DNA of 64,000 nt, taken from assembly GCA_964291675.2 (NCBI GenBank), contig OZ219866.1, forward strand, positions 1,152,001 through 1,216,000. Reading direction: 5' to 3'. Of this stretch, positions 9,823-63,569 are shown piece by piece. Position numbers and translations under genes: made by a program. The notes under the pieces are model-generated. The model did not search any database. It was not told the DNA's origin and worked only from the letters and a program-made list of their open reading frames with translations. This stretch comes from Alphaproteobacteria bacterium (GTDB lineage Bacteria; Pseudomonadota; Alphaproteobacteria; MPNO01). The stretch's first letter is position 1. Each line of letters opens with the position of its first letter.

Positions 9823-9911
9823 CGCCAACCTCGCGCTTGCTCGTCCGGACGCCATCTTGCGTCCTCCGCCGGGGTCTGGCAACGCGCCGGCGCGGACGCC
9901 ACAATCGGCGC

Positions 9912-25256: not shown

Positions 25257-25266
25257 GGCGTCCTCC

Positions 25267-26127
25267 TCACACCCCCATCAGGCCGCGGACCGCGCGGGTC
25301 AGGCGTCCCTCCGGGTTCTGGTAGTCGAACACGATGTCGAAATGGTTGGTCTCCGCCATGTCGACATAATCGGCCGAGAACCCCTTCGCGCGCCATGCCG
25401 CGGCGTAGTCGTCGGTCTGGCGCTTGAACTCCGAGGTCTCGTTGCCGCCATAGGAGACGACCAGCGGGCAGCCCGCCTCCGGCAGATGGTGGATCGGGCT
25501 GTTACGCCGCGCCGCCGCCTCGTCGAGCCGGGCCCATTCGTTGACCTCCGAGAGCCGGATCGGCTCCAGGTCGAAGATGCCGGAGATCGCGCACGCCCCC
25601 TTGACGATGTCTTCCGGCACGCCGAGCTCCGCGTGCCAGCCGCCCGAGATCATCGCCCCGGTGAGATGCCCGCCGGCCGAGCTACCGGTGACGAAGATGC
25701 GCTCCGGATCGCCGCCGAACGAGCCCGCCTCGGCCCGGGTCCAGGCGAGTGCGCGGCGGCATTGCGCGACGATGACATCGAGGCTCGCTTCCGGCGCCAG
25801 GCTGTAATTGACCGTCACCACGGCGGCGCCGAGGCCCGCGAAGCACTCCGCCATGAAGGCGCTCTCCTTCTGGCTCAGCATGCGCCAGTAGCCGCCATGG
25901 ATGTAGAACAGCACCGGCGCGCCGCCGCGGGCGGGGAAGATGTCGACCACCTCGTCGGCGGTCTCGCCGTAGCGCACGTCCTCGCGGCAGTCGAGGGCCT
26001 CGCGCGCCCGCGCGCTGTCGGCGGCGTAGCGCGCGACCGCCGCCTCGAACACCTCGACCGGCACGGTGCCCCGCGCCCGGTATTCCGCATCCAGCGTCTC
26101 CTGGTCGAAGCCGCGATAGACCGCCAT
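25267..26127 (-). CDS. Alpha/beta hydrolase (arylformamidase-like)
   Basis: IHGGYW, GSSAGGHL, ISGIFDL, NHF. Confidence 0.85.
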   Translation of the reverse strand: MAVYRGFDQETLDAEYRARGTVPVEVFEAAVARYAADSARAREALDCREDVRYGETADEVVDIFPARGGAPVLFYIHGGYWRMLSQKESAFMAECFAGLGAAVVTVNYSLAPEASLDVIVAQCRRALAWTRAEAGSFGGDPERIFVTGSSAGGHLTGAMISGGWHAELGVPEDIVKGACAISGIFDLEPIRLSEVNEWARLDEAAARRNSPIHHLPEAGCPLVVSYGGNETSEFKRQTDDYAAAWRAKGFSADYVDMAETNHFDIVFDYQNPEGRLTRAVRGLMGV

Positions 26128-26143
26128 TGCCGTTCTCCTCTGT

Positions 26144-26899
26144 CTATCCGTGCCGGGCGGGGGCCGGGTCGCGCGGGATTCCGAGCCAATCCGCCAGCCG
26201 GTCCATCGTCCCGTCGAGCCGCCCGCGCGCGACGATCGCGCCATGGGTGTACCAGGCGAGCGCGATCATCAACACGGCGGCGAAGAACACGTCGCTCAGG
26301 AAATGCGCGCCCATCGCCATGCGCAGCGCCCCCACCGCCGAGCCGAAGCCCATCGCCGCCCAGAATACCCGCCGGCGCAGGCCGAGCGGCACCAGAAACG
26401 CAAGCGCCACGTAGGCGAAGCCGTAGGCCGCCTCGCCGGAGACGAAGGAGCAGTTGCGCTCGCACTGGTCGGCGACGACCAGCGGCGGGCTAAAAGCCTT
26501 GTCGCCGCCGAACTCGGCGATCTCGCGCGGCCGCGCCCGGTCCCAGTGGTCCTTGAGCACGTTGTTGACGATCAGCCCCGGCCCGAGGAGCGAGAACACG
26601 ACGAGGAAGCAGATCGACCGCCGGGTGAGCCCGAACAGGTAGCGGCCCCAGAGATGGCGGCAGACCACCGAGAGCGCGAGCCCGGCGAAGACGACATAGC
26701 CGATCCGGATGAACCCCCGGCGCAGGGTCTGGAGGTCGGGGTCGCGCGCCGCCGGGAACCCGGCACCGGGGTCGTGGAACAGCCCGGCGAAGAACAGGTC
26801 GATCTCGGGAAACCGGTAGAGGATCGCGCCGGCGATCGCCGAGACCGCGCAGAACGCGAGCAGGCTTCGCCGTCCGTCCATCGGGCTCCGTTCGTCCAT
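26144..26899 (-). CDS. PAP2 family phosphatase (lipid A 4'-phosphatase LpxF-like)
   Basis: K..WDRARP, C..NCSFVSGE, RM..GAHFLSD. Confidence 0.75.
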   Translation of the reverse strand: MDERSPMDGRRSLLAFCAVSAIAGAILYRFPEIDLFFAGLFHDPGAGFPAARDPDLQTLRRGFIRIGYVVFAGLALSVVCRHLWGRYLFGLTRRSICFLVVFSLLGPGLIVNNVLKDHWDRARPREIAEFGGDKAFSPPLVVADQCERNCSFVSGEAAYGFAYVALAFLVPLGLRRRVFWAAMGFGSAVGALRMAMGAHFLSDVFFAAVLMIALAWYTHGAIVARGRLDGTMDRLADWLGIPRDPAPARHG

Positions 26900-27002
26900 C
26901 GCGGCCTGCCGGGTGGCGTCGTGGCGCAGGGTATCGCCCGCCGGCGGCGATTGCATCAACCCCCTGCCCTCCTATGATGGGCCGCCGTTCGAGGAGGGTT
27001 GC

Positions 27003-27592
27003 GTGTCCACAGGGCGTTCGCTTGCCGCCGCGTTGTCGCTGATCGCCGGACTAGCAGCCATTCCCTCCGGGGCGGCGCGCGCCGACAAGGCGACCATGGG
27101 GCTGATCTCCGCCGGCACCGCCTTCCTCGCCTACAGCGCGGCGTTCAACCGGACGGAGGGCGAAGAGCCCGATTCGCTGTCCGTCGGCACCGGCGTGTCG
27201 GACCCGATCGACCGGGAACACACCGCGGGCATGTTCCAGGTCGAGTACCGGCCCGCGCTGTGGGGTCTGCGCACCGGGCCGGTGGCCGGGCTCGCGGCCA
27301 CGCTCGACGGCCGCTTCATCGGCTATGCCGGGCTGCGCCACGACATCCTGTTCGCCGGGCGCTTCCTGGTGTCCTTCAACCTTGCCGCGGCCGCCTACCG
27401 CATCGAGGGCGACACCGACGAGGTCCGCGGGCTGCCCCAGTTCCGCACCGGTTTCGACATCCAGTACAAGCTGCCCGGCGGGTCCAAGGTCGGGGTCGCG
27501 CTGCAGCACTACTCGAACGCCGAGGTGTTCGAGAAGAGCAACCCGGGCACCGAGACCCTCGCCTTCACCTTCACCATGCCGCTCAGCCTGTT

Positions 27593-27596
<4 letters not shown>
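27003..27596 (+). CDS. Lipid A 3-O-deacylase PagL/acyloxyacyl hydrolase family outer-membrane protein
   Basis: Signal peptide; QHYSNA and NPGTE catalytic motifs; C-terminal Phe; GAGGAG RBS. Confidence 0.8.
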
Positions 27597-28408
<812 letters not shown>

Positions 28409-28495
28409 GGGTCTCGGTCGCTCCTCTGGCGGCTCTGGACGGTCGGGCGAAGCTACCCTAGAAGATCCGCCAGCGACACGGGAACGGGGACGGGA

Positions 28496-29473
28496 ATGGC
28501 GCTCAGACTCAGCTTCGCCTGCGGCAACTACGACCGCATGGACGCGCTCAAATCGGGCGAGGTCGCGCCCGAGGGCATCGACCTCGACTTCATCGGCATC
28601 GACGCGCCGCGCGAGATCTTCGACCGCATGATGGGGGAGAGCGCCTTCGACGTCTCGGAGCTGTCGTCCTCGGAGTTCGTCTCGATGACCGCCTCGGGCG
28701 ACCGCCGCTTCGTCGCACTCCCGGTCTTCCCCTCCAAGGCCTACCGCCACGGCTTCTTCTGCATCAACCGCAGGGCCGGGATCGCGGCTCCCAAGGACCT
28801 GGCGGGCAAGCGCATCGGCGTGCCGCTCTACACACAGACCGCCGCGGTCTGGTGCCGCGGCCATCTGGCCGAGGATTACGGCGTCGACCTGTCCGGCGTC
28901 GAGTGGGTCGAGGGCGCGGTCGAGAAGGGCGGCACCCACGGCACGCCGTCGGCGCCGCCGCTGTTGAAGCCGGCGCGCATCGTGCGGAACGAGACCGGGC
29001 GCTCGCTCAGCGAATTGCTGGCGGAAGGCGGGATCGACGCGCTGCTCGGCTCCCGGCTGCCGGACTCGCTGCGCACCCATCCGGACGTGGTCCGCCTGTT
29101 CCCCGACTTCCGCGAGGTCGAGAAGGCGCTCTACCGCACGCGGCGCATCCACCCGATCATGCACTTGGTGGCGATCAGGCGGGAGCTGCACGAGGCCGAC
29201 CCGTGGATCGCCCAATCCCTCTACGACGCCTTCGAGGCGTCCAGGGCGCTGGCGCTCGAACGCATGCGCAACTCGGCCGCCCAGCGCTACATGCTGCCCT
29301 TCCTGGTCTCCGACCTCGAGGAGATCGACGAGGTGTTCGGCGGCGACCCCTGGCGCTACGGCGTCGAGCCCAACCGCCCGACGCTGGAGGCGCTCGTGCG
29401 CTACCTGAAGGACCAGCACTTCATCGCCGAGGCGATGCCGGTCGACAGCCTGTTCGTTCCCGTGGAGGGGTGA
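28496..29473 (+). CDS. 4,5-dihydroxyphthalate decarboxylase-like / periplasmic-binding-fold protein
   Basis: ACG.YDR, FDVSELS, LPVFPS..RH, Y.QTAAVW.RG, HPIMH. Confidence 0.8.
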
Positions 29474-29477
29474 AGGG

Positions 29478-29587
29478 CCCTTCGATACGCGGCTTCGCCG
29501 CTACTCAGGATGAGGGTTGGGGAGCTTCCCGCAGGACTACCCCTCATCCTGAGTAGCCCCCCGCAGGGGGGCGTATCGAAGGACGCA
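29478..29587. repeat. Palindromic intergenic repeat, family A copy 2
   Basis: CCCTTCGATACGC..CTACTCAGGATGAGGG / CCCTCATCCTGAGTAG..GCGTATCGAAGGACGC. Confidence 0.85.
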
Positions 29588-29674
29588 GCGGGGTCCGCAA
29601 CGCTTCAACCCGAACCCCGCATGCTCTAGTTTGCCGACCACGACCATGCCTGTTCGAGCCGGGGAGGGGCCGCC

Positions 29675-30880
<1,206 letters not shown>

Positions 30881-30916
30881 GGGCGGGTCCGGGCGGGGCG
30901 CGGTCTCTCCACTCCG

Positions 30917-30935
30917 CCCCGGATCAGGTCCGGGG
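30917..30935. repeat. Short palindrome CCCCGGATCAGGTCCGGGG (family B core)
   Basis: Near-identical to 31747-31765 and 32769-32787. Confidence 0.7.
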
Positions 30936-30962
30936 CTCCGCGCCGCGCGCCCCGGTCGACGG

Positions 30963-31397
30963 TCAGGCGGCCTCTTCCACGGTGACCACCAGGCGCTTCC
31001 TGAAGCGGGCCAGGGCTTCCTCCAGCCTGCCGATCTTGGTGGCGTGGCGGGGATCGAGCATGCGGCGAACCTCGCTCTCCTGAATGCCCATGGCCGCCGC
31101 GAAGGCGCTGTTGGACAGCCGTCGTTCGCGCAGTGCCTCGTAGAGCGCCGCCTTGGCGGCCAGCACCGCGCCGGGCACCGCCGCAGGCCGGCCCCTGGCC
31201 GGGCTCGGCGTCGGGATATCCTCGCGCCGCGCGATGCGGCCCGCGAGCGCTTCTTCCAGGCAGTCCCCGGCTTCCGCGACCGCCTCGGCGAACGTGTCGC
31301 CGTCCGTGAACGCCTCCTCGAAGTCCGGGAAGGTGACCGAATAGCCGCCTTCGCGTTCCTTGTGAAGGTCGATGGGATAGCTGTACCGGGTTGCCAT
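30963..31397 (-). CDS. hicB: HicB family antitoxin
   Basis: YSVTFPDF.EA.TDG.T..EA...A.DCL; IPTPS; C-terminal HTH (EVRRMLDPRH.TK). Confidence 0.9.
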   Translation of the reverse strand: MATRYSYPIDLHKEREGGYSVTFPDFEEAFTDGDTFAEAVAEAGDCLEEALAGRIARREDIPTPSPARGRPAAVPGAVLAAKAALYEALRERRLSNSAFAAAMGIQESEVRRMLDPRHATKIGRLEEALARFRKRLVVTVEEAA

Positions 31398-31409
31398 GGT
31401 CGAAACTCC

Positions 31410-31622
31410 CTAAAGATCGTTCGGGTCGATGCCGAGCTGCCTGCACATGCCGAAAAGCGTGCCCGTCTTGAGCGGCTTGCTGCGGTCCTTCACCACGGTA
31501 TGGCGGTCGCCGTAGTACAGGGTGCCGTGACTCCCTTTGCCCCTTGCCCGGTCGAACCTGACCGCGATCCCATTCCTGCGCGCCGGCTTTCTCACCCTCG
31601 CTATGAATTCACGCCCGTTCAC
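31410..31622 (-). CDS. hicA: HicA family toxin
   Basis: 70 aa basic protein with GKGSH motif and ..GTL..MCRQLGI; GTG start; directly upstream of hicB. Confidence 0.85.
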   Translation of the reverse strand: MNGREFIARVRKPARRNGIAVRFDRARGKGSHGTLYYGDRHTVVKDRSKPLKTGTLFGMCRQLGIDPNDL

Positions 31623-31633
31623 GGGTCGATAAG

Positions 31634-31651
31634 TCGCACAAAAATGCGCGA
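31634..31651. promoter_or_regulatory. Imperfect palindrome TCGCAC-N6-GCGCGA, candidate HicB operator
   Basis: Just upstream of hicA start; 5/6 arm match. Confidence 0.35.
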
Positions 31652-31733
31652 ATGGACAATCGTTGTCTCGAACAATTTTGCGCGAGCCGGTGACGAAGAG
31701 GCGCGGGGAGAACCCCCTCCCTGCTACCCCCCT

Positions 31734-31810
31734 CGTCATGCCCGGCCCCCGGATCAAGTCCGGGGGTGATCCGGGGGCCGGCCATGACGGGAGCGGGGCC
31801 GGCCATGACG
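31734..31810. repeat. Composite REP-like palindrome (family B)
   Basis: CGTCATGCCCGG..CCCCGGATCAAGTCCGGGG..CCGGCCATGACG, with the last arm duplicated. Confidence 0.75.
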
Positions 31811-31926
31811 GTGAGGGCGAGGGAAGGAACGCTTCCGGCCCGGCCGGGCGGTCACGCCAACCGGGGCTTTCGCCCCGGCCGGTTCGGCGGCACAATGGGC
31901 GCGCCAACCGTGCCGGGAGGGGCGCC

Positions 31927-32751
31927 ATGCCCAAGGTGCTGACAGAGGCCGAGGTCTCGCAGTTCTGGAACGAGGGGTACTGCTTTCCCTTCGATTGCCT
32001 GACGACCGGGGAAGCGGCACAGGCGCGGGCGAAGCTGGAAGCCTTCGAGGGCGAGATCGACGGCCACATCGACCGGCATCTCCGGGTCAAGGTCCATCTC
32101 GGCTTCATGTGGCTGTGGGAGCTCGCGCATCACCCGAAGATCCTCGACGCGGTGGAAGACCTGATCGGCCCCGACATTCTGCTCTACCTGTCGACGCTGT
32201 GGTTCAAGGACGCGGGCGACGGCAAGCGGGTCTCCTGGCACCAGGATTCGGCCTATTACGGGCTGGAGCCGCATGACGTGGTCACGCTGTGGCTCGGCTT
32301 CACCGATTCCAACGCGGAGAACGGCTGCGTGCAGGTCATCCCGGGCACCCACAAGGAGCCCGACTACGTCCATGTCGAGACCTATGCGGAGAACAACCTG
32401 CTGGCGCGCGGCCAGACCATCGAGGAGATCGACGACTCGAGGGCGGTGAAGCTGGAGCTCAAGGCCGGGCAGTTCTCGCTGCACCACGAGCGGCTGGTGC
32501 ACGGCTCGGCGCCGAATCGGTCGGACGACCGCCGGCTCGGCATGTCGTTCACCTATCTGCCGACCTATGTGCGCTGCAACCTGCCCAACCGCACGGCGGT
32601 GCTGTGCCGCGGCGTCGACGAGTACAATCACTGGCAGCGCGACCCCGAGCCGCAATGCGACCGCGACCCGGTGTGCTGGGAGGCGATCCGCTTCTGGATC
32701 GAGGGCTACGCCGACCCCGACATCACCCAGGAAGCGCTGATCACCCGTTGA
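31927..32751 (+). CDS. PhyH family Fe(II)/2OG dioxygenase
   Basis: SWHQDSAYYGLEP, GQFSLHHERLVHGSAPN; paralog of 24432 and 55269. Confidence 0.9.
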   Translation: MPKVLTEAEVSQFWNEGYCFPFDCLTTGEAAQARAKLEAFEGEIDGHIDRHLRVKVHLGFMWLWELAHHPKILDAVEDLIGPDILLYLSTLWFKDAGDGKRVSWHQDSAYYGLEPHDVVTLWLGFTDSNAENGCVQVIPGTHKEPDYVHVETYAENNLLARGQTIEEIDDSRAVKLELKAGQFSLHHERLVHGSAPNRSDDRRLGMSFTYLPTYVRCNLPNRTAVLCRGVDEYNHWQRDPEPQCDRDPVCWEAIRFWIEGYADPDITQEALITR

Positions 32752-32753
32752 GG

Positions 32754-32872
32754 GCGTCCTTCGATACGCCCCGGATCGGGTCCGGGGCTACTCGGGATGA
32801 GCATACGCGGTGGGCGGCCCAATACCCTCTCCTCTTTCCGGGTAGGCCCGAAGCGCCGTATCGAGGGATGCC
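32754..32872. repeat. Palindromic intergenic repeat, family A copy 3 (with family B core inside)
   Basis: GCGTCCTTCGATACG[CCCCGGATCGGGTCCGGGG]CTACTCGGGATGAG ... GTATCGAGGGATGC. Confidence 0.75.
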
Positions 32873-51748: not shown

Positions 51749-52438
51749 TCAGGGGGGGCCGAGGGCGCGGATCAGCTCGGCGGTTCCGGGGTTGGCGAAT
51801 CTGCGCTGCACCACGATGGCCCGCGCGGTCGCTCCCGGGCCGTAATAGGCCCGGTTGCGGTCCCTGTCCTCGACGGTCACCGAACCTTCGAAGGAGGCGC
51901 CGAAGAAGGCGCCCCGCGACAGCGCGTAGGAGTAGATGTCGGCGCGCAGGTTGAGCGCCGTGGCGCCTTCGTAGCCGACCCCGAACGGGCCGGCGGCGAT
52001 GGACGCATCCGCGCCCAGCTTGAGCTTGGCCTGGAGCATGGCTTCCAGCGTCCGGTGCGACATGATCAGGAAGACCACCTCGGAGTCCTGGAACCCGAAC
52101 TGGAGCCCGATGCTGCCGGTGCCGATGTCGTAGAAGGCGGGGTTGCTCCACCGCCCCTGGCGGTCGCGCGCCAGCAGGACGCCGCTGCCGCCCTCGCCGC
52201 CGATCAGGAAGCTCGCCTTGATCAGGCTGGGGACGATCAGCACCGCCTGCGCCCGGCGGAGCAGCCCGGCGAACGGCCTGGTCTCGGGATTGCGGCGCAT
52301 CTTCTCGACGGTATAGCGCGCGTTGTCGACCAGCGCCTGCGGGGAGGACGCGGCCTCCGCCGGGACCGCCGCCATCGTCATCAGCGCCGCCGTCAGACCC
52401 GCCGCGGCGGCGTTTCTCGACCTCAACCCTGCAAGCAT
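51749..52438 (-). CDS. Lipid-binding SYLF/YSC84 domain protein, exported
   Basis: Signal peptide; IGGEGGSGV, GS.GLQ.G, GADASIAAGP.G, SY..S.G.F.G.S.EG. Confidence 0.85.
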   Translation of the reverse strand: MLAGLRSRNAAAAGLTAALMTMAAVPAEAASSPQALVDNARYTVEKMRRNPETRPFAGLLRRAQAVLIVPSLIKASFLIGGEGGSGVLLARDRQGRWSNPAFYDIGTGSIGLQFGFQDSEVVFLIMSHRTLEAMLQAKLKLGADASIAAGPFGVGYEGATALNLRADIYSYALSRGAFFGASFEGSVTVEDRDRNRAYYGPGATARAIVVQRRFANPGTAELIRALGPP

Positions 52439-52692
52439 CGCGAACTCCCGCTGAACGGCACTCGACGGGGCCGGTCCGACCCTGGGGCTAACATGGTCGG
52501 TCCCGCCCGGTTGGCAAGAATCGCGGCCGGACGGCGGGGTTTCCGGCACCCGTCGCGACCCTGATTATAAGAAAAACTCATCACTATGTTCATAAATCGG
52601 GATGAGACTTAATGATCCGGGGCCCTTAGACTTACCACCTCCCGTTGTAGGAGGGAATTTGCTATCAACCGTACGCGTAAGGGAGAGTTCCG

Positions 52693-53313
52693 ATGAGAGA
52701 CGGCAACAAGATGGAGAGAACGGCGGCGCGCGGCGAAACAGGCGGGCAGCGCGCCCCGGCGCCGTCGCCGGCGTTCGATCGCGACCGGACGCTGCTGATC
52801 GTCGACGACGACGCCCCGTTCCGCACCCGGCTCGCCCGGATCATGGAATCGCGCGGCTTCGACTGCGAAGCCGCCGCGTCGGTGGCCGAGGGGGTGATGG
52901 CCGCCAGCCGCCGTCCGCCGTCCTACGCCCTGCTCGATCTCCGGCTGGAGGACGGCAGCGGGCTCGAGGTGGTGAAGGCGATCCACGCCAAGCGCACCGA
53001 CACCAAGATCGTCATGCTGACCGGCTACGGCAACATCGCCACGGCGGTCGCGGCGGTCAAGGCGGGCGCGGTCGACTACCTCGCCAAGCCGGCGACCGCC
53101 GATGCCATCGAGGCCGCCCTGCTGGCCCAGGGCGACCTGCCGCCGCCGCCCCAGCACCCGATGTCGGCCGACCGGGTGCGCTGGGAGCATATCCAGCGGG
53201 TCTACGAACAATGCGACCGCAACGTGTCCGAGACCGCGCGGCGCCTCAACATGCACCGCCGCACCCTGCAGCGCATCCTCGCCAAGCGGGCGCCGCTGGA
53301 AAGGGCGCTGTGA
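52693..53313 (+). CDS. regA: RegA/ActR/PrrA family response regulator
   Basis: LTGYGNIATAVAAVK.GA.DYL.KP; PMSADRVRWEHIQRVYE.C.RNVSETARRLNMHRRTLQRILAKR. Confidence 0.95.
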   Translation: MRDGNKMERTAARGETGGQRAPAPSPAFDRDRTLLIVDDDAPFRTRLARIMESRGFDCEAAASVAEGVMAASRRPPSYALLDLRLEDGSGLEVVKAIHAKRTDTKIVMLTGYGNIATAVAAVKAGAVDYLAKPATADAIEAALLAQGDLPPPPQHPMSADRVRWEHIQRVYEQCDRNVSETARRLNMHRRTLQRILAKRAPLERAL

Positions 53314-53337
53314 ACGCCGGCCGCGCAAGGCGGCGGG

Positions 53338-53796
53338 TCAGGCGCCGGGATCGATCCGGCGCTGCAGCCGCGCCGCCGCGGCGAGCGCGAAACGCACCGT
53401 CTGGCGCCGCTTGCGCGAGCCGTTGACCGGCACCTTCGCCGCCGCCCGGCGCACCGCGCCGCCATAGGCGTCGGCGACGATCACGCCGCAATCGCCGGGC
53501 AGCAGCCGGTCGGGGAAGCGCTCGGAGACGGCGAAGTAGAAACGCTCGCAGAACGGCGGGTATTCGCGCCACTTGCGGTCGCTGCGGAAGTCCTCGACCG
53601 ACGACTTGACCTCGACGATGACGAACTCGCCCGAATCGTTGAGGCCGATCAGGTCCACCCTGCGGCCGTTGGTCAGGCGGAACTCGTACAGCACCGCATA
53701 GCCGAGATCGGCGAGCAGCCGTGCCGCGCCGCGCCGCAGCCGGGCTTCGGCGCCTTCCCTCCCCGGGACGGTCGGTGCGGGTGCGGTGTCGGGCAT
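53338..53796 (-). CDS. mmcB: MmcB (DUF1052) DNA repair endonuclease
   Basis: GRR.DL, IVEVKSS.EDFR.DRKW.EY..C.RFYFAV. Confidence 0.9.
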   Translation of the reverse strand: MPDTAPAPTVPGREGAEARLRRGAARLLADLGYAVLYEFRLTNGRRVDLIGLNDSGEFVIVEVKSSVEDFRSDRKWREYPPFCERFYFAVSERFPDRLLPGDCGVIVADAYGGAVRRAAAKVPVNGSRKRRQTVRFALAAAARLQRRIDPGA

Positions 53797-53929
53797 CGGT
53801 CCCGTCGCCACCGGAACAAAGCGTGATCATAGCGCCTGCGCAAGCCGCGTGAACGACTTTCTCGCGCGTGCTTTGACGCCGCCTCGCGGGGCCCTATCAT
53901 CGCGCCTCGGCAGCGCTGGCGGCAGGGCC

Positions 53930-55264
53930 ATGGCGAAACGGAGAATGCTGCGCCTCGGCGCCTTCATGCGCCCGGTGACCATCCATACCGGGTCGTGGCG
54001 CTACCCGGGCGCCTGGCCGGACGCGAATTTCAACTTCGCCCGCATCGAGCGCTTCGCCCGCACCCTCGAACGCGGCCGGTTCGACGCCTTCTTCATGGCC
54101 GACCACCTGGCCGTGCTGAACATGCCGATGGAGGCGCTGAAGCGGAGCGCCACCGTCACCTCGTTCGAGCCGATGACGCTGCTGCCGGCGCTGGCCATGG
54201 TCACCAAGCGCCTGGGTTTGATCGCCACCGGCTCGACCACCTATGACGAGCCCTACCACGTCGCCCGGCGCTTCGCCTCGCTCGACCATATCAGCGGCGG
54301 GCGGGCCGGCTGGAACGTGGTCACCACGTCGAACCCCGACGCCTCGCGCAATTTCGGCCGCGACGAGCATCTCGAACACGCGCTGCGCTACCGCCGCGCG
54401 CGCGAGTTCTTCGACGTGGTGACGGGGCTGTGGGACAGCTGGGAGGACGACGCCTTCCTGCGCGACCAGGAGAGCGGCATCTTCTTCGACCCGGAGAAGC
54501 TCCACGTGCTCGGCCACAGGGGCGAGCATTTCGACGTGCGCGGGCCGCTCAACATCGCCCGGCCGGTGCAGGGCTGGCCGGTGATCGTCCAGGCCGGCGC
54601 GTCGGATGCCGGGCGCCAGCTCGCCGCCGAGACCGCCGAGGCGGTGTTCGCCGCCGCCGCCGATCTCGAGGCCGGCCGCGAATTCTACGCCGACGTCAAG
54701 GGCAGGATGGAGAAGGCCGGGCGCGACCCCGACCGGATGAAGATCCTGCCGGGCTGCATGGTGGTGGTCGGCGACTCGCTGGACGAGGCGCGGGAGAAGC
54801 GCGCGCTGCTCGACAGCAAGGTGCATTTCGACAGCGCCGTCGCCGCGCTGTCGATCTCGCTCGGCCACGACGCCTCCAAATTCGATCCCGACGGCCCGCT
54901 GCCGGAGATCCCGGAGAGCAACGCGTCCAAGTCGGGGCGCGACCGCGCGATCGCGCTGGCACGGCGCGAGAAGCTGACGGTGCGCCAGCTCGCCCAGCGC
55001 CTCGGCGGCTATTCCGGGCTCTGCATGCTCGGCACGCCCGGGCAGATCGCCGACGAGATGGAGGAGTGGCTGGAGACCCGGGGCAGCGACGGGTTCAACC
55101 TGATGTTCCCCTATCTGCCCGAAGGGCTCGACGACTTCGTCGACCGCGTGGTGCCGGTGCTGCAGCGCCGCGGGCTGTTTCGCCGCGACTACGAAGGCGC
55201 TACGCTGCGCGACAATCTGGGGCTGCGGCGGCCGGAGAGCCGCTACGCCCGCGCACGGGGCTGA
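53930..55264 (+). CDS. LLM class flavin-dependent monooxygenase (NtaA/SnaA/DszA family)
   Basis: FMAD, EP.TL, ARRFASLDHISGGRAGWNVVT, LWDSWEDDA, QAGAS. Confidence 0.9.
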   Translation: MAKRRMLRLGAFMRPVTIHTGSWRYPGAWPDANFNFARIERFARTLERGRFDAFFMADHLAVLNMPMEALKRSATVTSFEPMTLLPALAMVTKRLGLIATGSTTYDEPYHVARRFASLDHISGGRAGWNVVTTSNPDASRNFGRDEHLEHALRYRRAREFFDVVTGLWDSWEDDAFLRDQESGIFFDPEKLHVLGHRGEHFDVRGPLNIARPVQGWPVIVQAGASDAGRQLAAETAEAVFAAAADLEAGREFYADVKGRMEKAGRDPDRMKILPGCMVVVGDSLDEAREKRALLDSKVHFDSAVAALSISLGHDASKFDPDGPLPEIPESNASKSGRDRAIALARREKLTVRQLAQRLGGYSGLCMLGTPGQIADEMEEWLETRGSDGFNLMFPYLPEGLDDFVDRVVPVLQRRGLFRRDYEGATLRDNLGLRRPESRYARARG

Positions 55265-55268
55265 TCCG

Positions 55269-56084
55269 ATGGCCAAGCTGCTCAGCGATGCCGAGCTCGC
55301 GCAGTGGCGGCGCTGCGGCGCGGTGTGGCCGCTCGACCTGCTGACGGCGGACGAGGCGGCGGCGCTCCGCGCGCGCTACGAGGCGCTCGATGCGGCCACC
55401 GAGGGCGGCGCGCAGTCGCGCTACCGGATCAAGGCGCATCTGCCCTTCCCCTGGCTCTGGCGGGTGATCCGCCTGCCCCGCCTGGCCGATGCGATCGAGG
55501 ACCTGCTGGGCCCCGACCTGGTCTGCTGGGGCTCGTCCTTCTTCGCCAAGCCGGCGCACGATCCGGGCTTCATCTCCTGGCACCAGGACTCGACCTATTA
55601 CGGGCTGGAGCCGCCCGAATCGGTGACCGCGTGGATCGCCTTCAGCGACGCGACCAGCGAGGCGGGCTGCATGAAGATCGTCGCCGGCTCCCATCTCGGC
55701 CCGGAGATCCTGCCGCATGACGAGATCCCCGACCCCGACAACATGCTGGTGCGCGGCCAGACCGTGCGGGGCGTCGACGAGACGCTCGCGGTCGAGATGC
55801 CGCTCGCGGCGGGGCAAATGTCGATCCACCACAACAAGACCATCCATTCGTCGGAGCCCAACCGGGCGGGCTGGCCGCGCATCGGCTTCGCGGTCCATTT
55901 CGCCGCCACCCATGTCCGCCAGATGCAGTTCGACGGCGCCACCGCGATCCTGCTCCGGGGTGCCGACCGCGAAGGCAACTGGCTGCCCGACCCCGAGCCC
56001 GCGGCGGATTTCGACCCGGCCTGCCTGGCCGCCCTCGACGTGTCCTGGACGCGCTACCGGACGGCGATGCGGGCGCAGCGCTAG
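55269..56084 (+). CDS. PhyH family Fe(II)/2OG dioxygenase
   Basis: SWHQDSTYYGLEP, GQMSIHH..IHSSEPN. Confidence 0.9.
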   Translation: MAKLLSDAELAQWRRCGAVWPLDLLTADEAAALRARYEALDAATEGGAQSRYRIKAHLPFPWLWRVIRLPRLADAIEDLLGPDLVCWGSSFFAKPAHDPGFISWHQDSTYYGLEPPESVTAWIAFSDATSEAGCMKIVAGSHLGPEILPHDEIPDPDNMLVRGQTVRGVDETLAVEMPLAAGQMSIHHNKTIHSSEPNRAGWPRIGFAVHFAATHVRQMQFDGATAILLRGADREGNWLPDPEPAADFDPACLAALDVSWTRYRTAMRAQR

Positions 56085-56103
56085 CCCCGCCGGGCAGGCC
56101 TAA

Positions 56104-56119
56104 TGTTTCACGTGAAACA
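56104..56119. other. parS: parS centromere site (perfect palindrome TGTTTCACGTGAAACA)
   Basis: Exact match to the canonical chromosomal ParB binding site. Confidence 0.9.
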
Positions 56120-56140
56120 ATGGTCAGCATTGTTGACCTA

Positions 56141-56156
56141 TGTTTCACGTCAAACA
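56141..56156. other. parS: parS site, one mismatch (TGTTTCACGTCAAACA)
   Basis: 15/16 match, 37 bp from the first site. Confidence 0.8.
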
Positions 56157-56281
56157 CTGCCCGAAACGGGCAAATTCGCGCCCCCCGGGGACGCCGCGAC
56201 CTCGCGCCGCGGCGGCGCCGCGGCGGGGTTTGCCGCCCGCCCCGGCGGCTTGCCGGAGACTCTTGGGAGACCGGTTCGGGT

Positions 56282-57139
56282 TCAGCCCCGAAGGTGGCGG
56301 TCGAAGAACCGGGCCAGCGGGTCGAAGGAGGTCGGCGAGGAGCGCGTCGCCTGGTCGATATAGACCACCTCGATCTCGCCCCCGGCGGCGCGGTAGCCGG
56401 CGGCGAAGCGCTCGGGCTCGTTGAGCGCGGCGCCGCCGTCGAGGTCGAGATAGTCGTGCACCTCGTCGGGCCGGCCCTGCACCCAGAGCGCGGGCGGCGT
56501 CTCGACCGCCTCGCCGCGCTCCAGCGCCAGCAGCGGGTTGCCCTCTTCCATCGCCGCCTCGGTGACCCAGTATGTGTCGTGGCATTCGCGGATCCCGGCC
56601 ACCCAGGCGGGCGGCTCGGCGCGCGCCTCGACGCGCGCGGCGTGGCGGTAGCGCGACAGCGGGTTGATCACCGGCCACGACATGCCGACGCAGCGCACGC
56701 GCGCGTCGACATCGGCGGCGCCGTCGAGCGGGATGGCGGCATAGCGCGGATCGTGCGGGCGCATCGCCGCCAGCATGGCGAGATGGCCGCCGCTCGACTG
56801 GCCGCTGAGGCCGATGCGCCCGGCATCGGCGCCGAACTCCCCGGCATGGGCCTTGAACCAGCGGATCGCGTAGTTGATGTCGGCGAGCGAGCTCGGATAG
56901 CCGTCCCCGGCATGGCGGAAATCGATCGCCGCGGCGACGATCCCGGAATCGGCCAGCGCCTCGTCGCGCTCCCGGCAGGTGGTCAGGTCGCCCCGGTTCC
57001 AGGCGCCGCCGTGGAGGTCGATCACCGCCGGGAACGGGCCCTCGCCGTCGGGCGCGAACACCCGCATCGTGAGCGGCGTGCCGCCGTGATGCAGATACGC
57101 GATGTCGGTGGTCGCGATGGTGCGCACGTCGCTCGCCAT
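56282..57139 (-). CDS. Alpha/beta hydrolase (HSL-like)
   Basis: LHGGAW, GQSSGGHLA. Confidence 0.85.
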   Translation of the reverse strand: MASDVRTIATTDIAYLHHGGTPLTMRVFAPDGEGPFPAVIDLHGGAWNRGDLTTCRERDEALADSGIVAAAIDFRHAGDGYPSSLADINYAIRWFKAHAGEFGADAGRIGLSGQSSGGHLAMLAAMRPHDPRYAAIPLDGAADVDARVRCVGMSWPVINPLSRYRHAARVEARAEPPAWVAGIRECHDTYWVTEAAMEEGNPLLALERGEAVETPPALWVQGRPDEVHDYLDLDGGAALNEPERFAAGYRAAGGEIEVVYIDQATRSSPTSFDPLARFFDRHLRG

Positions 57140-57308
57140 GTCCGGTCTCCCGCGTCGCCGTTCGGACGATGGTACGCGGGTTGGCGCCGCTTGCGAAAGC
57201 CTGGCGGTTTCGCCGCATCGCGATTCGCTCTACCCTGCCCCGACGCATGGATCGAGCGGCGGGCAGCACCGCAACCGGGTCGATCGAGGCGTGCTTGAGG
57301 GACTCGCG

Positions 57309-57923
57309 ATGGATCGTGTCTTCATTTACTGGGACAACTCGAACCTTTTCATCAGCGCCCGTGACGTCGCGGTCGAGCGCGAAGGCGCCACGGCCCGTCA
57401 TCGTGTGCGCGTCCAATTCCGGCATCTCCTGGAATTGGCGCGCGCAGGCCGCGATATCGAGCACGCGATCGCCGTGGGATCCGTCCCGCCGGAGCTTCGA
57501 CACGTCTGGAATCGGCTGGAGAACGAGGGCGTGACCGTTCAGCTCCTGGAACGGGGTGCGTTGGAGGGCCGGGAACAGGGCGTGGACCAGACGCTGCAGA
57601 CCGCAATGTTGCGCGATGCGTTCGACTACAACGGAGATCCCGGCATCGCGGTATTGCTGACCGGAGACGGGAGCGGCTTCATCGACGGCGTCGGCTTCCA
57701 CGCCGACCTCGAACGCATGCACAGCCGGGGATGGCGGATCGAGGTGTTGTCGTGGCGGCACAGCTGCAATCGCCGAATGCGGGAATGGGCCGAACAAAAC
57801 GGCAAGTTCGTGGCACTCGACGACTTCTGCGACAGCATAACCTTTCTGGAGCGCTCGATGCCGGGCGATCCTATCGCCCAACCGCGCCACGCGGTTCCCG
57901 TCGATCTGGACAGACGCGCGTGA
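57309..57923 (+). CDS. NYN (LabA/PIN-like) domain protein
   Basis: VFIYWDNSN, EQGVD, LLTGDG.GF acidic motifs. Confidence 0.8.
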   Translation: MDRVFIYWDNSNLFISARDVAVEREGATARHRVRVQFRHLLELARAGRDIEHAIAVGSVPPELRHVWNRLENEGVTVQLLERGALEGREQGVDQTLQTAMLRDAFDYNGDPGIAVLLTGDGSGFIDGVGFHADLERMHSRGWRIEVLSWRHSCNRRMREWAEQNGKFVALDDFCDSITFLERSMPGDPIAQPRHAVPVDLDRRA

Positions 57924-57984
57924 CCGATCTTGACGCGGTGTGCCCAGGCCAGTCGTTGGCATGAGAAGTTGGAAGGGGATGGAC

Positions 57985-58440
57985 ATGAGCCTGATCGAAG
58001 CCGGCGCGGCGGCGCCCGCCTTCTCGATGGTCAACCAGGACGGCGAGCGGGTCGGCCTCGACGACTTCGCCGGAAGCTACGTGCTGCTCTGGTGGTACCC
58101 GAAGGCCTCGACCCCGGGGTGAACCGCCGAGGGCCAGGGGTTCCGTGATCGAATCCAGGATTTTGAGGACCGGAACACCGTCATCCTCGGCGTGAGCTTC
58201 GACCCGACCGAGGCCAACCGGCGGTTCCGCGAGAAGCAGGGCTTTCCCTACGACCTCCTGAGCGACCTCGACAAGACGGCGAGCATCGCCTATGGCGTGG
58301 CGACGGCGGACGACCAGCGCACCCCGCGCCGCTCGGTGCTGATCGCGCCCGACGGCACCGTCGCCGCCGCCTACGCCACGGTCAAGCCGGCCGAGCATCC
58401 CGACCGGGTGCTCGCCGACCTCGATTCGCTCGGCGGGTGA
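57985..58440 (+). CDS. bcp: BCP/PrxQ peroxiredoxin with in-frame UGA (selenocysteine) at codon 46
   Basis: YPKASTPG-[TGA 58120-58122]-TAEGQGFRD aligns with BCP YPKxxTPGCTxEAxxFRD; frame continues through LGVSFD, FPYDLLSD, R.SVLI.PDG. Confidence 0.85.
58134..58159 (+). promoter_or_regulatory. Candidate bacterial SECIS hairpin
   Basis: GGGTTC/GAATCC stem, 7-nt loop CGTGATC starting 21 nt after UGA, extendable by CC/GG. Confidence 0.5.
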
Positions 58441-58757: not shown

Positions 58758-60101
58758 CTACTCCGCGGCCTCGGCCGGCGTCTTCGGGCTGTTGGCGGCG
58801 ATGGTCTGCATGTTGTTGCGCCGGGTGACGAATTTTTCCGGGCCCTCGTAGACGCCGTCCGGGATGTCGAAATAGCCGGAATCGAACTGCGCCTCGTCGG
58901 TCAGCCGCATGGCGATCGAGTCGAACGGGCACACGTCCATGCAGAGCTCGCAGCCGATGCAGGTCTCGGGATGGACCTCGACCTTGCCCGCCGGGCTCTG
59001 CGACAGCGCCTCGTAGAAGCACATCTGGATGCAGATCGTGCAGCTCGGGTTCTGGCAGGTGTCCTCGTTGACCACCGCGTGCACGCGGTCGCGGGCGAAC
59101 TGCTCGGCATAGTCCTTCGCCGCCCGGCGCGAGGCGATCCCCCGCATCGACTCGACGTCCGGGTAGCCGTGCTCGTCCATGAAGCGCTCGACCCCGTTGA
59201 TGATGTTGGGCAGCCACTTCATGCCCTTGATCATCAGCACCGAGCCGATCTCCACCACATTCGCGCCGGTCATCAGGAACTCGACCGCGTCGCGGTGGTC
59301 GAAGATGCCGTTGGTGCCGGCGATCGGGATGCCGACCTGGGTGTAGATGTTGTGCACCCATCTGAGCGTCAGCGGCTTGACCCAGGTGCCGCCGATGCCC
59401 GCCGTGCCGGCGAGCCGGGGCTCCGCCGCCTCGATGTCGACCGCGAACCCGGTATGGCGGTTGGTCGCGGTGACCGCCGCCGCGCCCGCCTTCTGCACCG
59501 CGCGGGCGATCTCGACCGGGCGCGACTGGTCCGGGGTGAGCTTGACCACGACCGGGATGTCGACCGCCTCGACCACCTGGCGGGTGACCTCGAAGGCGAT
59601 GTCCTCTTCCTGGCTGATCATGCTGCCGCCGTGGACGCCCGGCATCAGGGCGGGGTGCGGGCAGCCGAAATTGAGCTCGACCATGGGCAGCCCGCAATCC
59701 TCGATGGTGCGGCAGATGTCCTTCCAGCCGTCGACCTCCTTGGCGCCGGCCGAGCCGATCAGATGCGCCCCGCGCTCGGCGGCATAGGCGCCGACCTCCT
59801 TGAGATAGGGGATCCAGTCCTTGTAGTAGGTGCTGGAATAGCCCGACCGGCTGTAGAACACGAAGTCGCGCGGCACCTTGCCCTTGATGATGTCGCCGCG
59901 GTCGTTGAGGATCGCGTATTTCGAGTTCTGCGTGAGCCGCGCCATGTCCTCCATGTCGGTCAGCGTCTTGACGATGGCCCCCGCCGCCCCGTAGTCGAAG
60001 CACTGCTTCATCAGGTCGGGGCTGTTGGTGGTCTCCAGCGAGGCGACCACCACCGGGTTCTTGAACGGGATGCCGCAAAACTCGACTGCCATGTCTGCCA
60101 T
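58758..60101 (-). CDS. Dihydropyrimidine dehydrogenase PreA-like flavoprotein with C-terminal 4Fe-4S domain
   Basis: FKNP...AS, KT, ELNFGCPH, VKLTP, GGI-like NGI; CxxCxxCxxxCP ferredoxin motifs. Confidence 0.75.
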   Translation of the reverse strand: MADMAVEFCGIPFKNPVVVASLETTNSPDLMKQCFDYGAAGAIVKTLTDMEDMARLTQNSKYAILNDRGDIIKGKVPRDFVFYSRSGYSSTYYKDWIPYLKEVGAYAAERGAHLIGSAGAKEVDGWKDICRTIEDCGLPMVELNFGCPHPALMPGVHGGSMISQEEDIAFEVTRQVVEAVDIPVVVKLTPDQSRPVEIARAVQKAGAAAVTATNRHTGFAVDIEAAEPRLAGTAGIGGTWVKPLTLRWVHNIYTQVGIPIAGTNGIFDHRDAVEFLMTGANVVEIGSVLMIKGMKWLPNIINGVERFMDEHGYPDVESMRGIASRRAAKDYAEQFARDRVHAVVNEDTCQNPSCTICIQMCFYEALSQSPAGKVEVHPETCIGCELCMDVCPFDSIAMRLTDEAQFDSGYFDIPDGVYEGPEKFVTRRNNMQTIAANSPKTPAEAAE

Positions 60102-62211: not shown

Positions 62212-63477
62212 CTACTGGACTCCGGTGTGCACGGAATAGAGCTCCTCGCCGGCGTTCGGCGATCCGCCAGATGGTCGGGGTCGAGGTCTCGGTCCACGTC
62301 CTGCACCCGGATGAGGATCGTGATGGCCTGCAAGCGCCATGTACTCGGCTGTCACCGGCCGAGGAGCTGTGGGCGGAGGCACGAATTCGGAGCGGGCAAT
62401 TGCAAGCGTGGGATCGCCACGAATTTTCTCTCCGTAGAGCTGCGCTGCGATTGATCGGCCAAGAATCTCCGCCAGGAGAGGAGGAGTGGCATTGCCAGCT
62501 TGCCGAACTTGCTCGCGGTAAGTCCCATCAAGCTTCCAGGAGCTCGGAAAGGTCTGCAGCCGGAGAATCTCCTCTGGCGCAAGGGGGCGGCTGTCCCAGT
62601 GAAAGGGCCCTGTGGCCGGGCCGGGGTTTGCCGGCACCGTCCAAGCAGGCTCGGCCTTCGCTAGCTTGAGGAGGAATGACCAGAATCGGCGTCGGTACCC
62701 GAAGAGCGACGGCCCCTCGCCTCGCTCGGTGAAGAACTGATAGTTCTGGCCTTCGGGTACTGAAGGCAGCAGGCCGGCGAATCGCCCGCTTGGAGCTGGT
62801 GGCTTTGCGGGACGCACATCGTGAAGCGCGTCCCAAGCCCGCACCGGATGATCTCGATGTGTCGCAGCAGGCCACGTTGGAATGGCTCCGTTGCGAAACG
62901 CGACGACGATGGCGCGTCTGCGCCGCTGCGGAACTCCGAAATCGGCGGCGTTGAGTATTCTGTAGGCCAGCTTGTAGCGTGTGCCGCTCCGGCAATTGAC
63001 GGCTGCGAGGCGCTCTTCCAGGATCGACAACGCTGAGCGATTGCCCTTCACGAATCCAGGCACGTTCTCGATCAAGATCGCATGGGGAAGTAGTCGCTCT
63101 ATTAGAGTCAGCAAGCTGTCGAGGGTCTGAGACCGATGATCGCCGAGCCCACGAGCACCAGTGCGGGACCACTGAGCCGCATTCGAGAAGGGCTGGCAGG
63201 GCGGTCCGGCGGCCAGCAGGGTGAGCTCCCCCTTGGCGATTCCAAGGTCGCGTGGGAGCAGATTGATCGCGACCTCGTTGATGTCGTAAGGATTCAGACA
63301 CTGTAGCTTGGGGCGGTTGAGCGCTAGGGAGCGTCGCGCCGCTGCATCGTTCTCTATTCCTCCAACGATGACGAACCCTGCGTGCTCCAAGCCAAGGTCG
63401 AGCCCACCGATGCCGGAGAACGCTGACAGACAGACGAGCTGTCCGTTAGGAGCGCCCTCATCCACGTGGCCAGTCAC
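62212..63477 (-). CDS. DNA (cytosine-5)-methyltransferase
   Basis: FSGIGG motif I, GPPCQPFS, ENV.G, FGVPQ.R.R, RLQTFP, GNA.PP; probable GTG start at 63477. Confidence 0.9.
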   Translation of the reverse strand: MTGHVDEGAPNGQLVCLSAFSGIGGLDLGLEHAGFVIVGGIENDAAARRSLALNRPKLQCLNPYDINEVAINLLPRDLGIAKGELTLLAAGPPCQPFSNAAQWSRTGARGLGDHRSQTLDSLLTLIERLLPHAILIENVPGFVKGNRSALSILEERLAAVNCRSGTRYKLAYRILNAADFGVPQRRRRAIVVAFRNGAIPTWPAATHRDHPVRAWDALHDVRPAKPPAPSGRFAGLLPSVPEGQNYQFFTERGEGPSLFGYRRRFWSFLLKLAKAEPAWTVPANPGPATGPFHWDSRPLAPEEILRLQTFPSSWKLDGTYREQVRQAGNATPPLLAEILGRSIAAQLYGEKIRGDPTLAIARSEFVPPPTAPRPVTAEYMALAGHHDPHPGAGRGPRPRPRPSGGSPNAGEELYSVHTGVQ

Positions 63478-63569
63478 CGTCCGCTCCCGCCCAGCTTCTC
63501 GCACAATTCGACTATTCTACTGATGCTAAGGGTCACGACCAGCGAACAGCCACCCCCGATCAAGCTGCC

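What the first reader, a model, noticed from the sequence alone, without database searches (positions are those of the whole stretch)
57985..58440. Hidden selenoprotein: peroxiredoxin with UGA at the peroxidatic cysteine
Seen: the ORF track splits this into a 60-aa and an 82-aa ORF, but they are one frame interrupted by a single TGA (58120-58122) in YPKASTPG*TAEG. The 151-aa product has no Cys at all, and a hairpin (GGGTTC-CGTGATC-GAATCC) lies 21 nt downstream. Known: BCP/PrxQ enzymes use PxxxTxxC with that Cys as the catalytic residue, and Sec-containing Prx families have been described. Inference: this is a '1-Sec' peroxiredoxin with no resolving Cys, so the genome should encode SelA/SelB/SelC/SelD.
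Basis: partly seen in the sequence, partly recalled or inferred. Interest (0 to 1): 0.75.

Follow-up and report, generated by a model that had tools for sequence, protein, structure and literature searches.

The report
Selenocysteine peroxiredoxin of a known family
A bacterial antioxidant enzyme gene that looks broken by a stop codon is almost certainly intact and reads that codon as the rare amino acid selenocysteine, which is real but ordinary, because the same subfamily was catalogued from seawater DNA in 2005.

Summary
Window 57985-58440 (+) is one 151-codon BCP/PrxQ frame with a single TGA (58120-58122) at the peroxidatic position of PxxxTxx[C/U], and no Cys.

A GTDB scan that left this codon free (TGN) returned 119 loci: 111 TGA, 8 TGY, 0 TGG. 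In 104 of the 111 the frame stays open for 100-116 codons after the TGA. The hairpin at 58138-58156 fits the bacterial SECIS consensus and is held at synonymous sites: five inner pairs are intact in 108 of 111 TGA loci against 2 of 8 Cys loci. dN/dS after the TGA is 0.29-0.36. Nonsense mutation, sequencing error and UGA=Trp are rejected.

Not shown: selA/B/C/D. None lies in the window or 1.29 Mb of flanks, and the genome was unavailable. The window's own hairpin is outcompeted in longer folds.

Not novel: three members of this subfamily, with the same SECIS letters, are listed as Sec peroxiredoxins in the 2005 Sargasso Sea supplement. How a Cys-free Sec-PrxQ is recycled remains open.

The parts
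57971..57978 (+). Shine-Dalgarno-like purine run, 6 nt before ATG 57985 (a second in-frame ATG at 57979 abuts it)
   Evidence: Sequence; closest relative L056 starts at the equivalent Met
57985..58440 (+). Selenocysteine-containing BCP/PrxQ-type peroxiredoxin CDS, 151 aa, no Cys; terminal stop TGA 58438-58440
   Evidence: Pfam AhpC-TSA E=9.7e-31; top PDB sequence hits all BCP; AlphaFold pLDDT 97.3; Foldseek top hits BCP/PrxQ, TM about 0.9
58099..58122 (+). Peroxiredoxin active-site motif P39-x3-T43-x2-U46
   Evidence: P39, G45, position 46 and T47 invariant, T43 in at least 90% of 105 aligned sequences; position 46 aligns with the peroxidatic Cys of Xanthomonas BCP and lies in the first turn of helix 44-55
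58120..58122 (+). In-frame UGA, inferred Sec codon (U46)
   Evidence: TGA in 111 of 119 GTDB loci, TGY in 8, TGG in 0
58135..58137 (+). Gln51: the helix-alpha2 resolving-Cys position (peroxidatic +5), not Cys here
   Evidence: Cys at +5 in only 8 of 103 full-length TGA relatives
58138..58156 (+). Bacterial SECIS: 6-bp stem 58138-58143/58151-58156, 7-nt loop 58144-58150 with G (58145) then U (58146), 21 nt from UGA to loop
   Evidence: 99.1% of cells paired over 106 distinct sequences vs 4-66% for slid registers; it uses CGT and CGA, which are 4 and 1 of 259 Arg codons in 11 window genes; consensus model from PMC13188914
58228..58230 (+). Arg82: the helix-alpha3 resolving-Cys position of Xanthomonas PrxQ, not Cys here
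   Evidence: Pairwise alignments to 5iph/5iox
58327..58329 (+). Arg115, the conserved catalytic Arg of peroxiredoxins
   Evidence: Invariant in 105 of 105 aligned sequences

Best explanation
This is an intact gene for a selenocysteine form of the BCP/PrxQ peroxiredoxin, in an uncultured alphaproteobacterium. The hairpin 15-34 nt after the UGA is a bacterial SECIS; SelB-GTP-Sec-tRNA(Sec) binds its G-U loop and inserts Sec at codon 46 (codon and hairpin conservation shown; decoding inferred from the established pathway). In the folded enzyme the U46 selenolate, held by P39, T43 and R115, attacks H2O2 or organic hydroperoxides and becomes selenenic acid (residues and fold shown; chemistry inferred from Prx enzymology). 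With no second Cys, it must be resolved from outside, as 1-Cys Prxs are: a small thiol or a Trx/Grx cysteine forms a Se-S bond and is then reduced (inferred; partner unknown, and the gene has no conserved neighbours).
For: Codon-unbiased scan: 111 TGA, 7 TGC, 1 TGT, 0 TGG of 119 loci; every locus with 70 or more identities to the query has TGA. After the TGA, 104 of 111 frames run 100-116 codons, 6 run off the fetched DNA and 1 (L014) is frameshifted. The terminal stop varies (TGA 54, TAG 28, TAA 21 of 103) while the internal one never does. SECIS at silent sites in the 111 TGA loci: Gly +6 is only GGG/GGA (111 of 111; 31% elsewhere in the same genes), Phe is TTC 111 of 111, loop Arg is CGT 100 of 111 (11% elsewhere), and the stem Arg ends in A in 106 of 111 (15% elsewhere). 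Five inner pairs are intact in 108 of 111 vs 2 of 8 Cys loci, Fisher p=6e-7, not corrected for relatedness. Of the 11 TGA loci lacking the loop U, 8 carry a shifted 7-8 bp hairpin with a G-U loop, 2 can form either hairpin and 1 has a G-G loop. dN/dS after the TGA is 0.29 vs L056 and 0.36 vs L054, and the six SECIS codons are identical in both. The window sits inside a 76-row clade in which all 75 DNA-checked rows have TGA (quick tree, SH-aLRT 88). The same subfamily is listed as Sec-Prx in the PMC1088965 supplement.
Against: No selA, selB, selD or tRNA-Sec in the window or in 1.285 Mb of relatives' flanks, and the one nearby FdhF homologue that aligns at the Sec site (L036) has TGC. In the window's own mRNA the hairpin's pairing probability falls from 0.35 (40 nt) to 0.0 (60 nt or more) because of a competing fold, whereas the relatives' median is 0.9. 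The core hairpin alone is only -4.6 kcal/mol. There are no two-sided compensatory changes in the 6-bp core, so the shuffle control is uninformative (500 of 500). No second selenoprotein candidate was found in the window. No selenium incorporation data exist here.
Confidence: 0.92

Rival explanations
1. The family is a true selenoprotein family, but this copy is a recently silenced remnant in a genome that has lost the Sec machinery, or its SECIS is masked by the competing fold so that little full-length protein is made.
For: Machinery not seen in the window; the hairpin is outcompeted at equilibrium in the window's mRNA but not in most relatives; an NYN gene has inserted just upstream, where L056 has the promoter region.
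Against: No frameshift or second stop; catalytic residues intact; SECIS identical to L056 and L054 although the rest of the downstream frame has dS 0.48-0.58; the gene keeps codons that are rare in this genome only inside the hairpin.
Confidence: 0.04
2. UGA is read through by another SECIS/SelB-dependent route that inserts Cys (a UCA-anticodon tRNA charged with Cys; recalled from work on some Deltaproteobacteria, from no call), giving an ordinary 1-Cys PrxQ.
For: Would also conserve UGA plus hairpin; PMC8124441 passages note that anticodon variants of tRNA-Sec exist in nature.
Against: The trait spans about 12 phylum-level labels, far wider than the few lineages recalled for such tRNAs; a plain TGC codon would do the same job at no cost.
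Confidence: 0.02
3. The organism uses a reassigned code (UGA=Trp, table 4, or Gly, table 25), so the protein is a catalytically dead Prx-like protein. The 39 database homologues that show W here would then be real.
For: 39 of 87 protein hits have W at this column.
Against: 0 of 119 genomic loci have TGG. All W-forms come from contigs of at most 2375 bp, consistent with gene callers choosing table 4 (inference). TGA ends this gene and 3 of 11 other window genes checked, with 53 TGG codons in those 11. A reassigned code needs no SECIS.
Confidence: 0.005
4. A nonsense mutation or sequencing error in a Cys codon (pseudogene).
For: TGC to TGA is one base change; 1 of 111 relatives (L014) is frameshifted.
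Against: 111 genomes of 33-75% GC share the TGA, including the two closest relatives; dN/dS is about 0.3 downstream.
Confidence: 0.005

Closest known systems
Sec-containing peroxiredoxin, COG1225 (Bcp), TxxU motif, of the Sargasso Sea and GOS selenoproteomes (PMC1088965, 43 sequences; PMC2398784, 253 sequences)
   Same: Three supplement entries (AACY01271188, AACY01451564, AACY01763591) have the same WWYPKA.TPG-U-T.EG.GFRDRIQ signature, and their DNA carries the same 19-nt hairpin. Reviews list Prx/COG1225/TxxU as an established selenoprotein family.
   Different: Those are partial reads without taxonomy; here the gene is whole, in an alphaproteobacterial genome, and the subfamily is shown in at least 111 GTDB species genomes. 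The passages read do not discuss the missing resolving Cys or the SECIS register shift.
BCP/PrxQ subfamily (Xanthomonas PrxQ 5iiz/3gkk, Sulfolobus Bcp1 3drn; NCBIfam PRK09437)
   Same: Best sequence and fold hits; best NCBIfam model at 107.8 bits; same motif and Arg.
   Different: Sec replaces the peroxidatic Cys; no resolving Cys in alpha2 or alpha3 (about one third of PrxQ also lack one, PMC4749874); below the PRK09437 cut-off of 140; 32-34% identity to the solved structures.
PrxU of Eubacterium acidaminophilum (Sohling 2001, seen only as a reference listing; NCBIfam NF040737)
   Same: The experimentally verified Sec peroxiredoxin cited by both reviews; TxxU motif.
   Different: Score 36.5 against a cut-off of 270, model length 233: a different, longer Prx subfamily, so its biochemistry does not transfer directly.
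E. coli fdhF SECIS / SelB recoding
   Same: Hairpin inside the coding region just 3' of UGA, with G then U early in the loop (fdhF fetched and folded).
   Different: No sequence similarity; fdhF has a bulged upper stem and a 4-nt loop, while this one is a plain 6-bp stem with a 7-nt loop.

Membership tests
Peroxiredoxin | Pxxx(T/S)xx(C/U) motif | tested here: met
   P39, T43, U46; definition from PMC4749874 and PMC13188914 passages
Peroxiredoxin | Conserved distal Arg | tested here: met
   R115 invariant in 105 of 105
Peroxiredoxin | Thioredoxin/Prx fold with the peroxidatic residue at the start of helix alpha2 | tested here: met
   pLDDT 97.3, helix 44-55; Foldseek TM 0.86-0.92 to BCP/PrxQ
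Peroxiredoxin | Peroxidase activity | not testable with these tools
   Needs an assay
BCP/PrxQ subfamily | Closest to BCP/PrxQ among Prx subfamilies | tested here: met
   Top 11 PDB sequence hits are BCP-type; BCP 107.8 bits vs AhpC 25.9 and Tpx 38.6
BCP/PrxQ subfamily | Reaches the curated cut-off of the NCBIfam BCP equivalog PRK09437 (the E. coli-type 2-Cys orthologue group) | tested here: not met
   107.8 against 140: filed in the wider PrxQ/COG1225 subfamily, not in that equivalog
Bacterial Sec-Prx (COG1225, TxxU) | In-frame UGA aligned with the catalytic Cys of homologues and conserved across genomes | tested here: met
   111 of 119 TGA, 8 TGY
Bacterial Sec-Prx (COG1225, TxxU) | bSECIS: 3-9 nt loop, 4-16 bp stem, G in the first two loop positions, 16-37 nt from UGA | tested here: met
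   7-nt loop, 6 bp, G at loop position 2 followed by U, 21 nt; model
Bacterial Sec-Prx (COG1225, TxxU) | bSECIS free energy at or below -7.5 kcal/mol and the hairpin is the preferred local fold | tested here: inconclusive
   -7.9 to -8.1 with the outer pairs, -4.6 for the core alone; outcompeted in windows of 60 nt or more in this gene but not in most relatives. bSECISearch itself was not run
Bacterial Sec-Prx (COG1225, TxxU) | selA, selB, selC, selD in the genome | not testable with these tools
   Only the window and 1.285 Mb of relatives' flanks were searchable; no hit
Bacterial Sec-Prx (COG1225, TxxU) | Selenium incorporated at residue 46 | not testable with these tools
   Needs 75Se or MS
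PrxU (NF040737) | Curated HMM cut-off 270 | tested here: not met
   36.5 bits
Prx-SUH (NF045827) / SelL-related (NF040769) | Curated HMM cut-offs 298 / 120 | tested here: not met
   21.1 and 19 bits
UGA-reassigned code (table 4/25) | UGA is sense genome-wide | tested here: not met
   TGA ends this gene and 3 of 11 other window genes

The most novel reading that the evidence does not exclude
This widespread Sec-PrxQ clade (at least 111 genomes, about 12 phylum labels) has dispensed with a resolving residue because Sec is recycled by a route not yet described for peroxiredoxins: an intersubunit diselenide, a selenenylamide resting state, or direct reduction by a small thiol or sulfide. That would make it a minimal Cys-free natural selenoperoxidase. 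Its GFRDRI helix segment would be fixed partly by SECIS constraint, with a register-shifted SECIS having evolved in the UxxxxC/UxxxxR lineages. 34 of 103 full-length members have no Cys at all and only 8 keep the +5 Cys. No biochemical study of a Sec-PrxQ turned up in four library searches (open-access library only).
Probability: 0.15. Interest if true: 0.55.

Novelty: new member of a known kind. Interest (0 to 1): 0.25.

Why it matters
It corrects an annotation blind spot more than it opens new biology. Of 87 database homologues, 39 are recorded with Trp in place of the catalytic residue, 16 as C-terminal fragments and 1 as an N-terminal stub. No NCBIfam 20.0 model reached its cut-off. So a common antioxidant enzyme of marine and soil bacteria is routinely shown as dead or split. 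The gene also marks these uncultured lineages as probable selenium users beyond formate dehydrogenase. A 151-aa, Cys-free Sec-PrxQ with a compact SECIS would be a clean model for asking how Sec changes peroxiredoxin recycling and resistance to overoxidation.

Tried and rejected
Folding energy as proof of the SECIS: not significant (z = -0.11 to 0.19 for windows up to 61 nt), and the significant longer folds (z = -2.2 to -3.1) are a different structure.

Covariation: none on both sides in the 6-bp core because coding fixes one partner. An 8-bp extension had 0 of 500 shuffles reaching its pairing or score, but its outer two pairs fail in 68 and 92 of 106 sequences, so it was not adopted.

Sec machinery: ARAGORN and Rfam gave nothing in the window; tblastn with E. 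coli SelA, SelB and SelD gave no hit at E 1e-4 in the window or 119 loci, and ARAGORN found no tRNA-SeC there.

Conserved neighbours or a redox partner: clustering 3227 ORFs from the long loci showed none; the largest non-Prx cluster was in 16 loci.

Other hidden selenoproteins in window or flanks: the first scan was swamped by off-frame shadows and its output was cut; the filtered scan gave none.

Promoter scan: no sigma-70 match.

The careful tree did not finish, so the quick tree was used; 10 of 120 rows were left out as truncated or frameshifted.

Supplements of papers other than PMC1088965 were not opened and may list more of this subfamily.

Full report
1. The observation. Window 57985-58440 (+) translates to 151 residues with one internal TGA at 58120-58122 in the motif YPKASTPG*TAEG and no Cys. 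The ORF track splits it into in-frame 60-aa and 82-aa pieces. A purine run at 57971-57978 lies 6 nt before ATG 57985. The named hairpin is at 58138-58156: its stem starts 15 nt and its loop 21 nt after the UGA. On energy alone it is unremarkable (z = 0.19 for 58130-58165), and longer windows fold differently.

2. What the protein is. With TGA read as U it matches Pfam AhpC-TSA (E 9.7e-31). The best solved relatives are BCP/PrxQ proteins, and residue 46 aligns with their peroxidatic Cys. In NCBIfam the best model is the BCP equivalog at 107.8 bits, below its cut-off of 140; the PrxU and Prx-SUH selenoprotein models score only 36.5 and 21.1. AlphaFold on a 105-sequence alignment gives pLDDT 97.3 with residue 46 in the first turn of helix 44-55, and Foldseek's top hits are BCP/PrxQ at TM about 0.9. 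P39, G45, residue 46, T47 and R115 are invariant. The two PrxQ resolving positions hold Gln51 and Arg82.

3. The codon across genomes. Of 87 protein homologues, 39 have W at this column, 31 have C, 16 are C-terminal fragments and 1 is an N-terminal stub; the W-forms all come from contigs of at most 2375 bp. To see the DNA I scanned GTDB with a subfamily motif that left the codon's third base free. Result: TGA 111, TGC 7, TGT 1, TGG 0. The W-forms are therefore most likely table-4 gene calls (inference). After the TGA, 104 of 111 frames run 100-116 codons, 6 leave the fetched DNA and 1 is frameshifted. The hosts span 33-75% GC and about 12 phylum-level labels, some perhaps mis-binned. The closest, L056 (122 of 151 identical, an alphaproteobacterial MAG syntenic at 78-88% nucleotide identity) and L054, both have TGA. 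dN/dS after the TGA is 0.29 and 0.36. In a quick tree of 135 rows (10 truncated or frameshifted loci left out; the careful search did not finish) the window lies in a 76-row clade whose 75 DNA-checked rows are all TGA, the exception being protein P0003 with Cys. Cys and Sec forms are interleaved in the sister group. TGA is an ordinary stop in this genome: it ends this gene and 3 of 11 others checked.

4. The SECIS. The consensus in PMC13188914 (passages read) asks for a 3-9 nt loop, a 4-16 bp stem, G in the first two loop positions usually followed by G or U, 16-37 nt from UGA, and -7.5 kcal/mol or lower. The hairpin has a 7-nt loop, 6 bp, G-U at loop positions 2-3 and 21 nt; its energy is -7.9 to -8.1 with outer pairs and -4.6 for the core. 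The search pattern left all silent positions free, yet in the 111 TGA loci the stem Gly is only GGG/GGA (31% elsewhere in the same genes), Phe is always TTC, the loop Arg is CGT in 100 (11% elsewhere) and the stem Arg ends in A in 106 (15% elsewhere). This holds in the 37 loci with GC of 65% or more. In 11 window genes CGT and CGA are 4 and 1 of 259 Arg codons, and the hairpin uses both. Five inner pairs are intact in 108 of 111 TGA loci and 2 of 8 Cys loci (sequences are related, so the Fisher p of 6e-7 overstates independence). Pairing is 99.1% in register against 4-66% when slid, though the structure was derived from these sequences and there are no two-sided changes. Of the 11 TGA loci without the loop U, 8 have a shifted 7-8 bp hairpin with a G-U-U loop 17 nt from UGA, 2 can form either hairpin, and 1 has a G-G loop. 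Against this: in the window's own mRNA a competing fold drives the hairpin's pairing probability to 0.0 in windows of 60 nt or more, while the relatives' median is 0.9. Co-translational folding and SelB binding could overcome that (inference).

5. What was not found. There is no tRNA or Rfam hit in the window and no SelA, SelB, SelD or tRNA-Sec in the window or 1.285 Mb of flanks; an FdhF homologue beside L036 has TGC. These are small slices of each genome, so the machinery is untested, not absent. PMC8124441 (passages read) reports selABC clusters in Rhodospirillales and other Alphaproteobacteria. The gene has no conserved neighbours, and no second selenoprotein candidate was found in the window.

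6. Mechanism. Shown: codon, hairpin, catalytic residues, fold and absence of Cys. Inferred from established pathways: SelB-mediated Sec insertion; selenolate attack on peroxide; resolution of the selenenic acid by an outside thiol, as for 1-Cys Prxs. PMC4749874 (passages read) notes that about one third of PrxQ lack a resolving Cys and that a small thiol or another protein's Cys then does the job. Among 103 full-length TGA relatives, 34 have no Cys, 8 have Cys at +5 and 4 have one at +33 to +39, so lacking a resolving residue is the rule in this clade. PMC7231847 (passages read) computes a lower first barrier for Sec than for Cys in a Prx active site and says Prxs only exceptionally use selenium.

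7. Comparison with what is known. Sec-Prx of COG1225 with TxxU is an established family: 43 sequences in the Sargasso Sea (PMC1088965, passages), 253 in GOS (PMC2398784, passages), 12 in 2006 genomes (PMC1794560, passages), and it is tabulated in two reviews (PMC9312934 and PMC13188914, passages). A search of the PMC1088965 supplement found three entries of this very subfamily with the same hairpin letters. The experimental reference cited by the reviews, PrxU (Sohling 2001, seen only as a citation), belongs to a different Prx subfamily by HMM score. Four searches of the open-access library showed no biochemical study of a Sec-PrxQ; subscription journals were not covered.

8. Verdict. Real, well supported and already known in kind: a new member of a predicted selenoprotein subfamily published in 2005. 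Confidence in Sec decoding is 0.92 and interest 0.25. The residual value lies in annotation repair and in the untested question of how a Cys-free Sec-PrxQ is recycled (probability of a new route 0.15, interest if true 0.55).

Noticed in passing
window 57309-57923 (+): NYN-domain gene (Pfam E 4.9e-10) between the esterase and the Prx. It is absent from the syntenic relative L056, where the esterase region joins the Prx directly, and is 82.7% identical in DNA to L036:15344-15951 of a gammaproteobacterium that has its own Sec-Prx 5 kb away. Looks like a recent horizontal insertion.
   Followed up: partly
L023, L026, L031, L035, L038, L069, L078, L106 (+10 to +28 after UGA): Register-shifted SECIS (7-8 bp stem, G-U-U loop, 17 nt from UGA) in mostly acidobacterial members with Cys or Arg at +5; L030 and L052 can form both hairpins, like intermediates.
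   Followed up: partly
L007:4893-4940 and L010: L007 has TGC but keeps a 5-pair stem and the G-U loop, a probable remnant SECIS; Cys-coded L010 is sister to TGA-coded L038/L078, so Sec and Cys forms have switched recently.
   Followed up: partly
L011:9112-9561 and 9718-10167 (-): Two tandem TGA-containing Prx copies; the second has a diverged motif (Tyr in place of Pro two residues before the stop, Ser after it). L025 has a tandem Cys pair.
   Followed up: no
L014:9725-10170 (-): The only TGA relative with a frameshift, near residue 110: assembly error or decaying copy.
   Followed up: no
L027 vs L047; L006: A 'Phycisphaerae' copy is nearly identical to an alphaproteobacterial one, and a 'Verrucomicrobiales' copy nests among Alphaproteobacteria: mis-binning or transfer.
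   Followed up: no
window 58758-60101 (-): PreA-like dihydropyrimidine dehydrogenase subunit with a C-terminal 4Fe-4S domain (217 bits, below the cut-off of 335), convergent with the Prx and with no PreT partner seen beside it.
   Followed up: no
window 24432-32758 and 51762-57236 vs L056: Both blocks lie within 20 kb around the Prx in L056 but about 19 kb or more apart in the window, so a rearrangement or insertion separates them; several PhyH-like dioxygenase paralogues cross-match.
   Followed up: no
window 62212-63504 (-): C-5 cytosine DNA methyltransferase near the window end, possibly part of a restriction-modification island.
   Followed up: no
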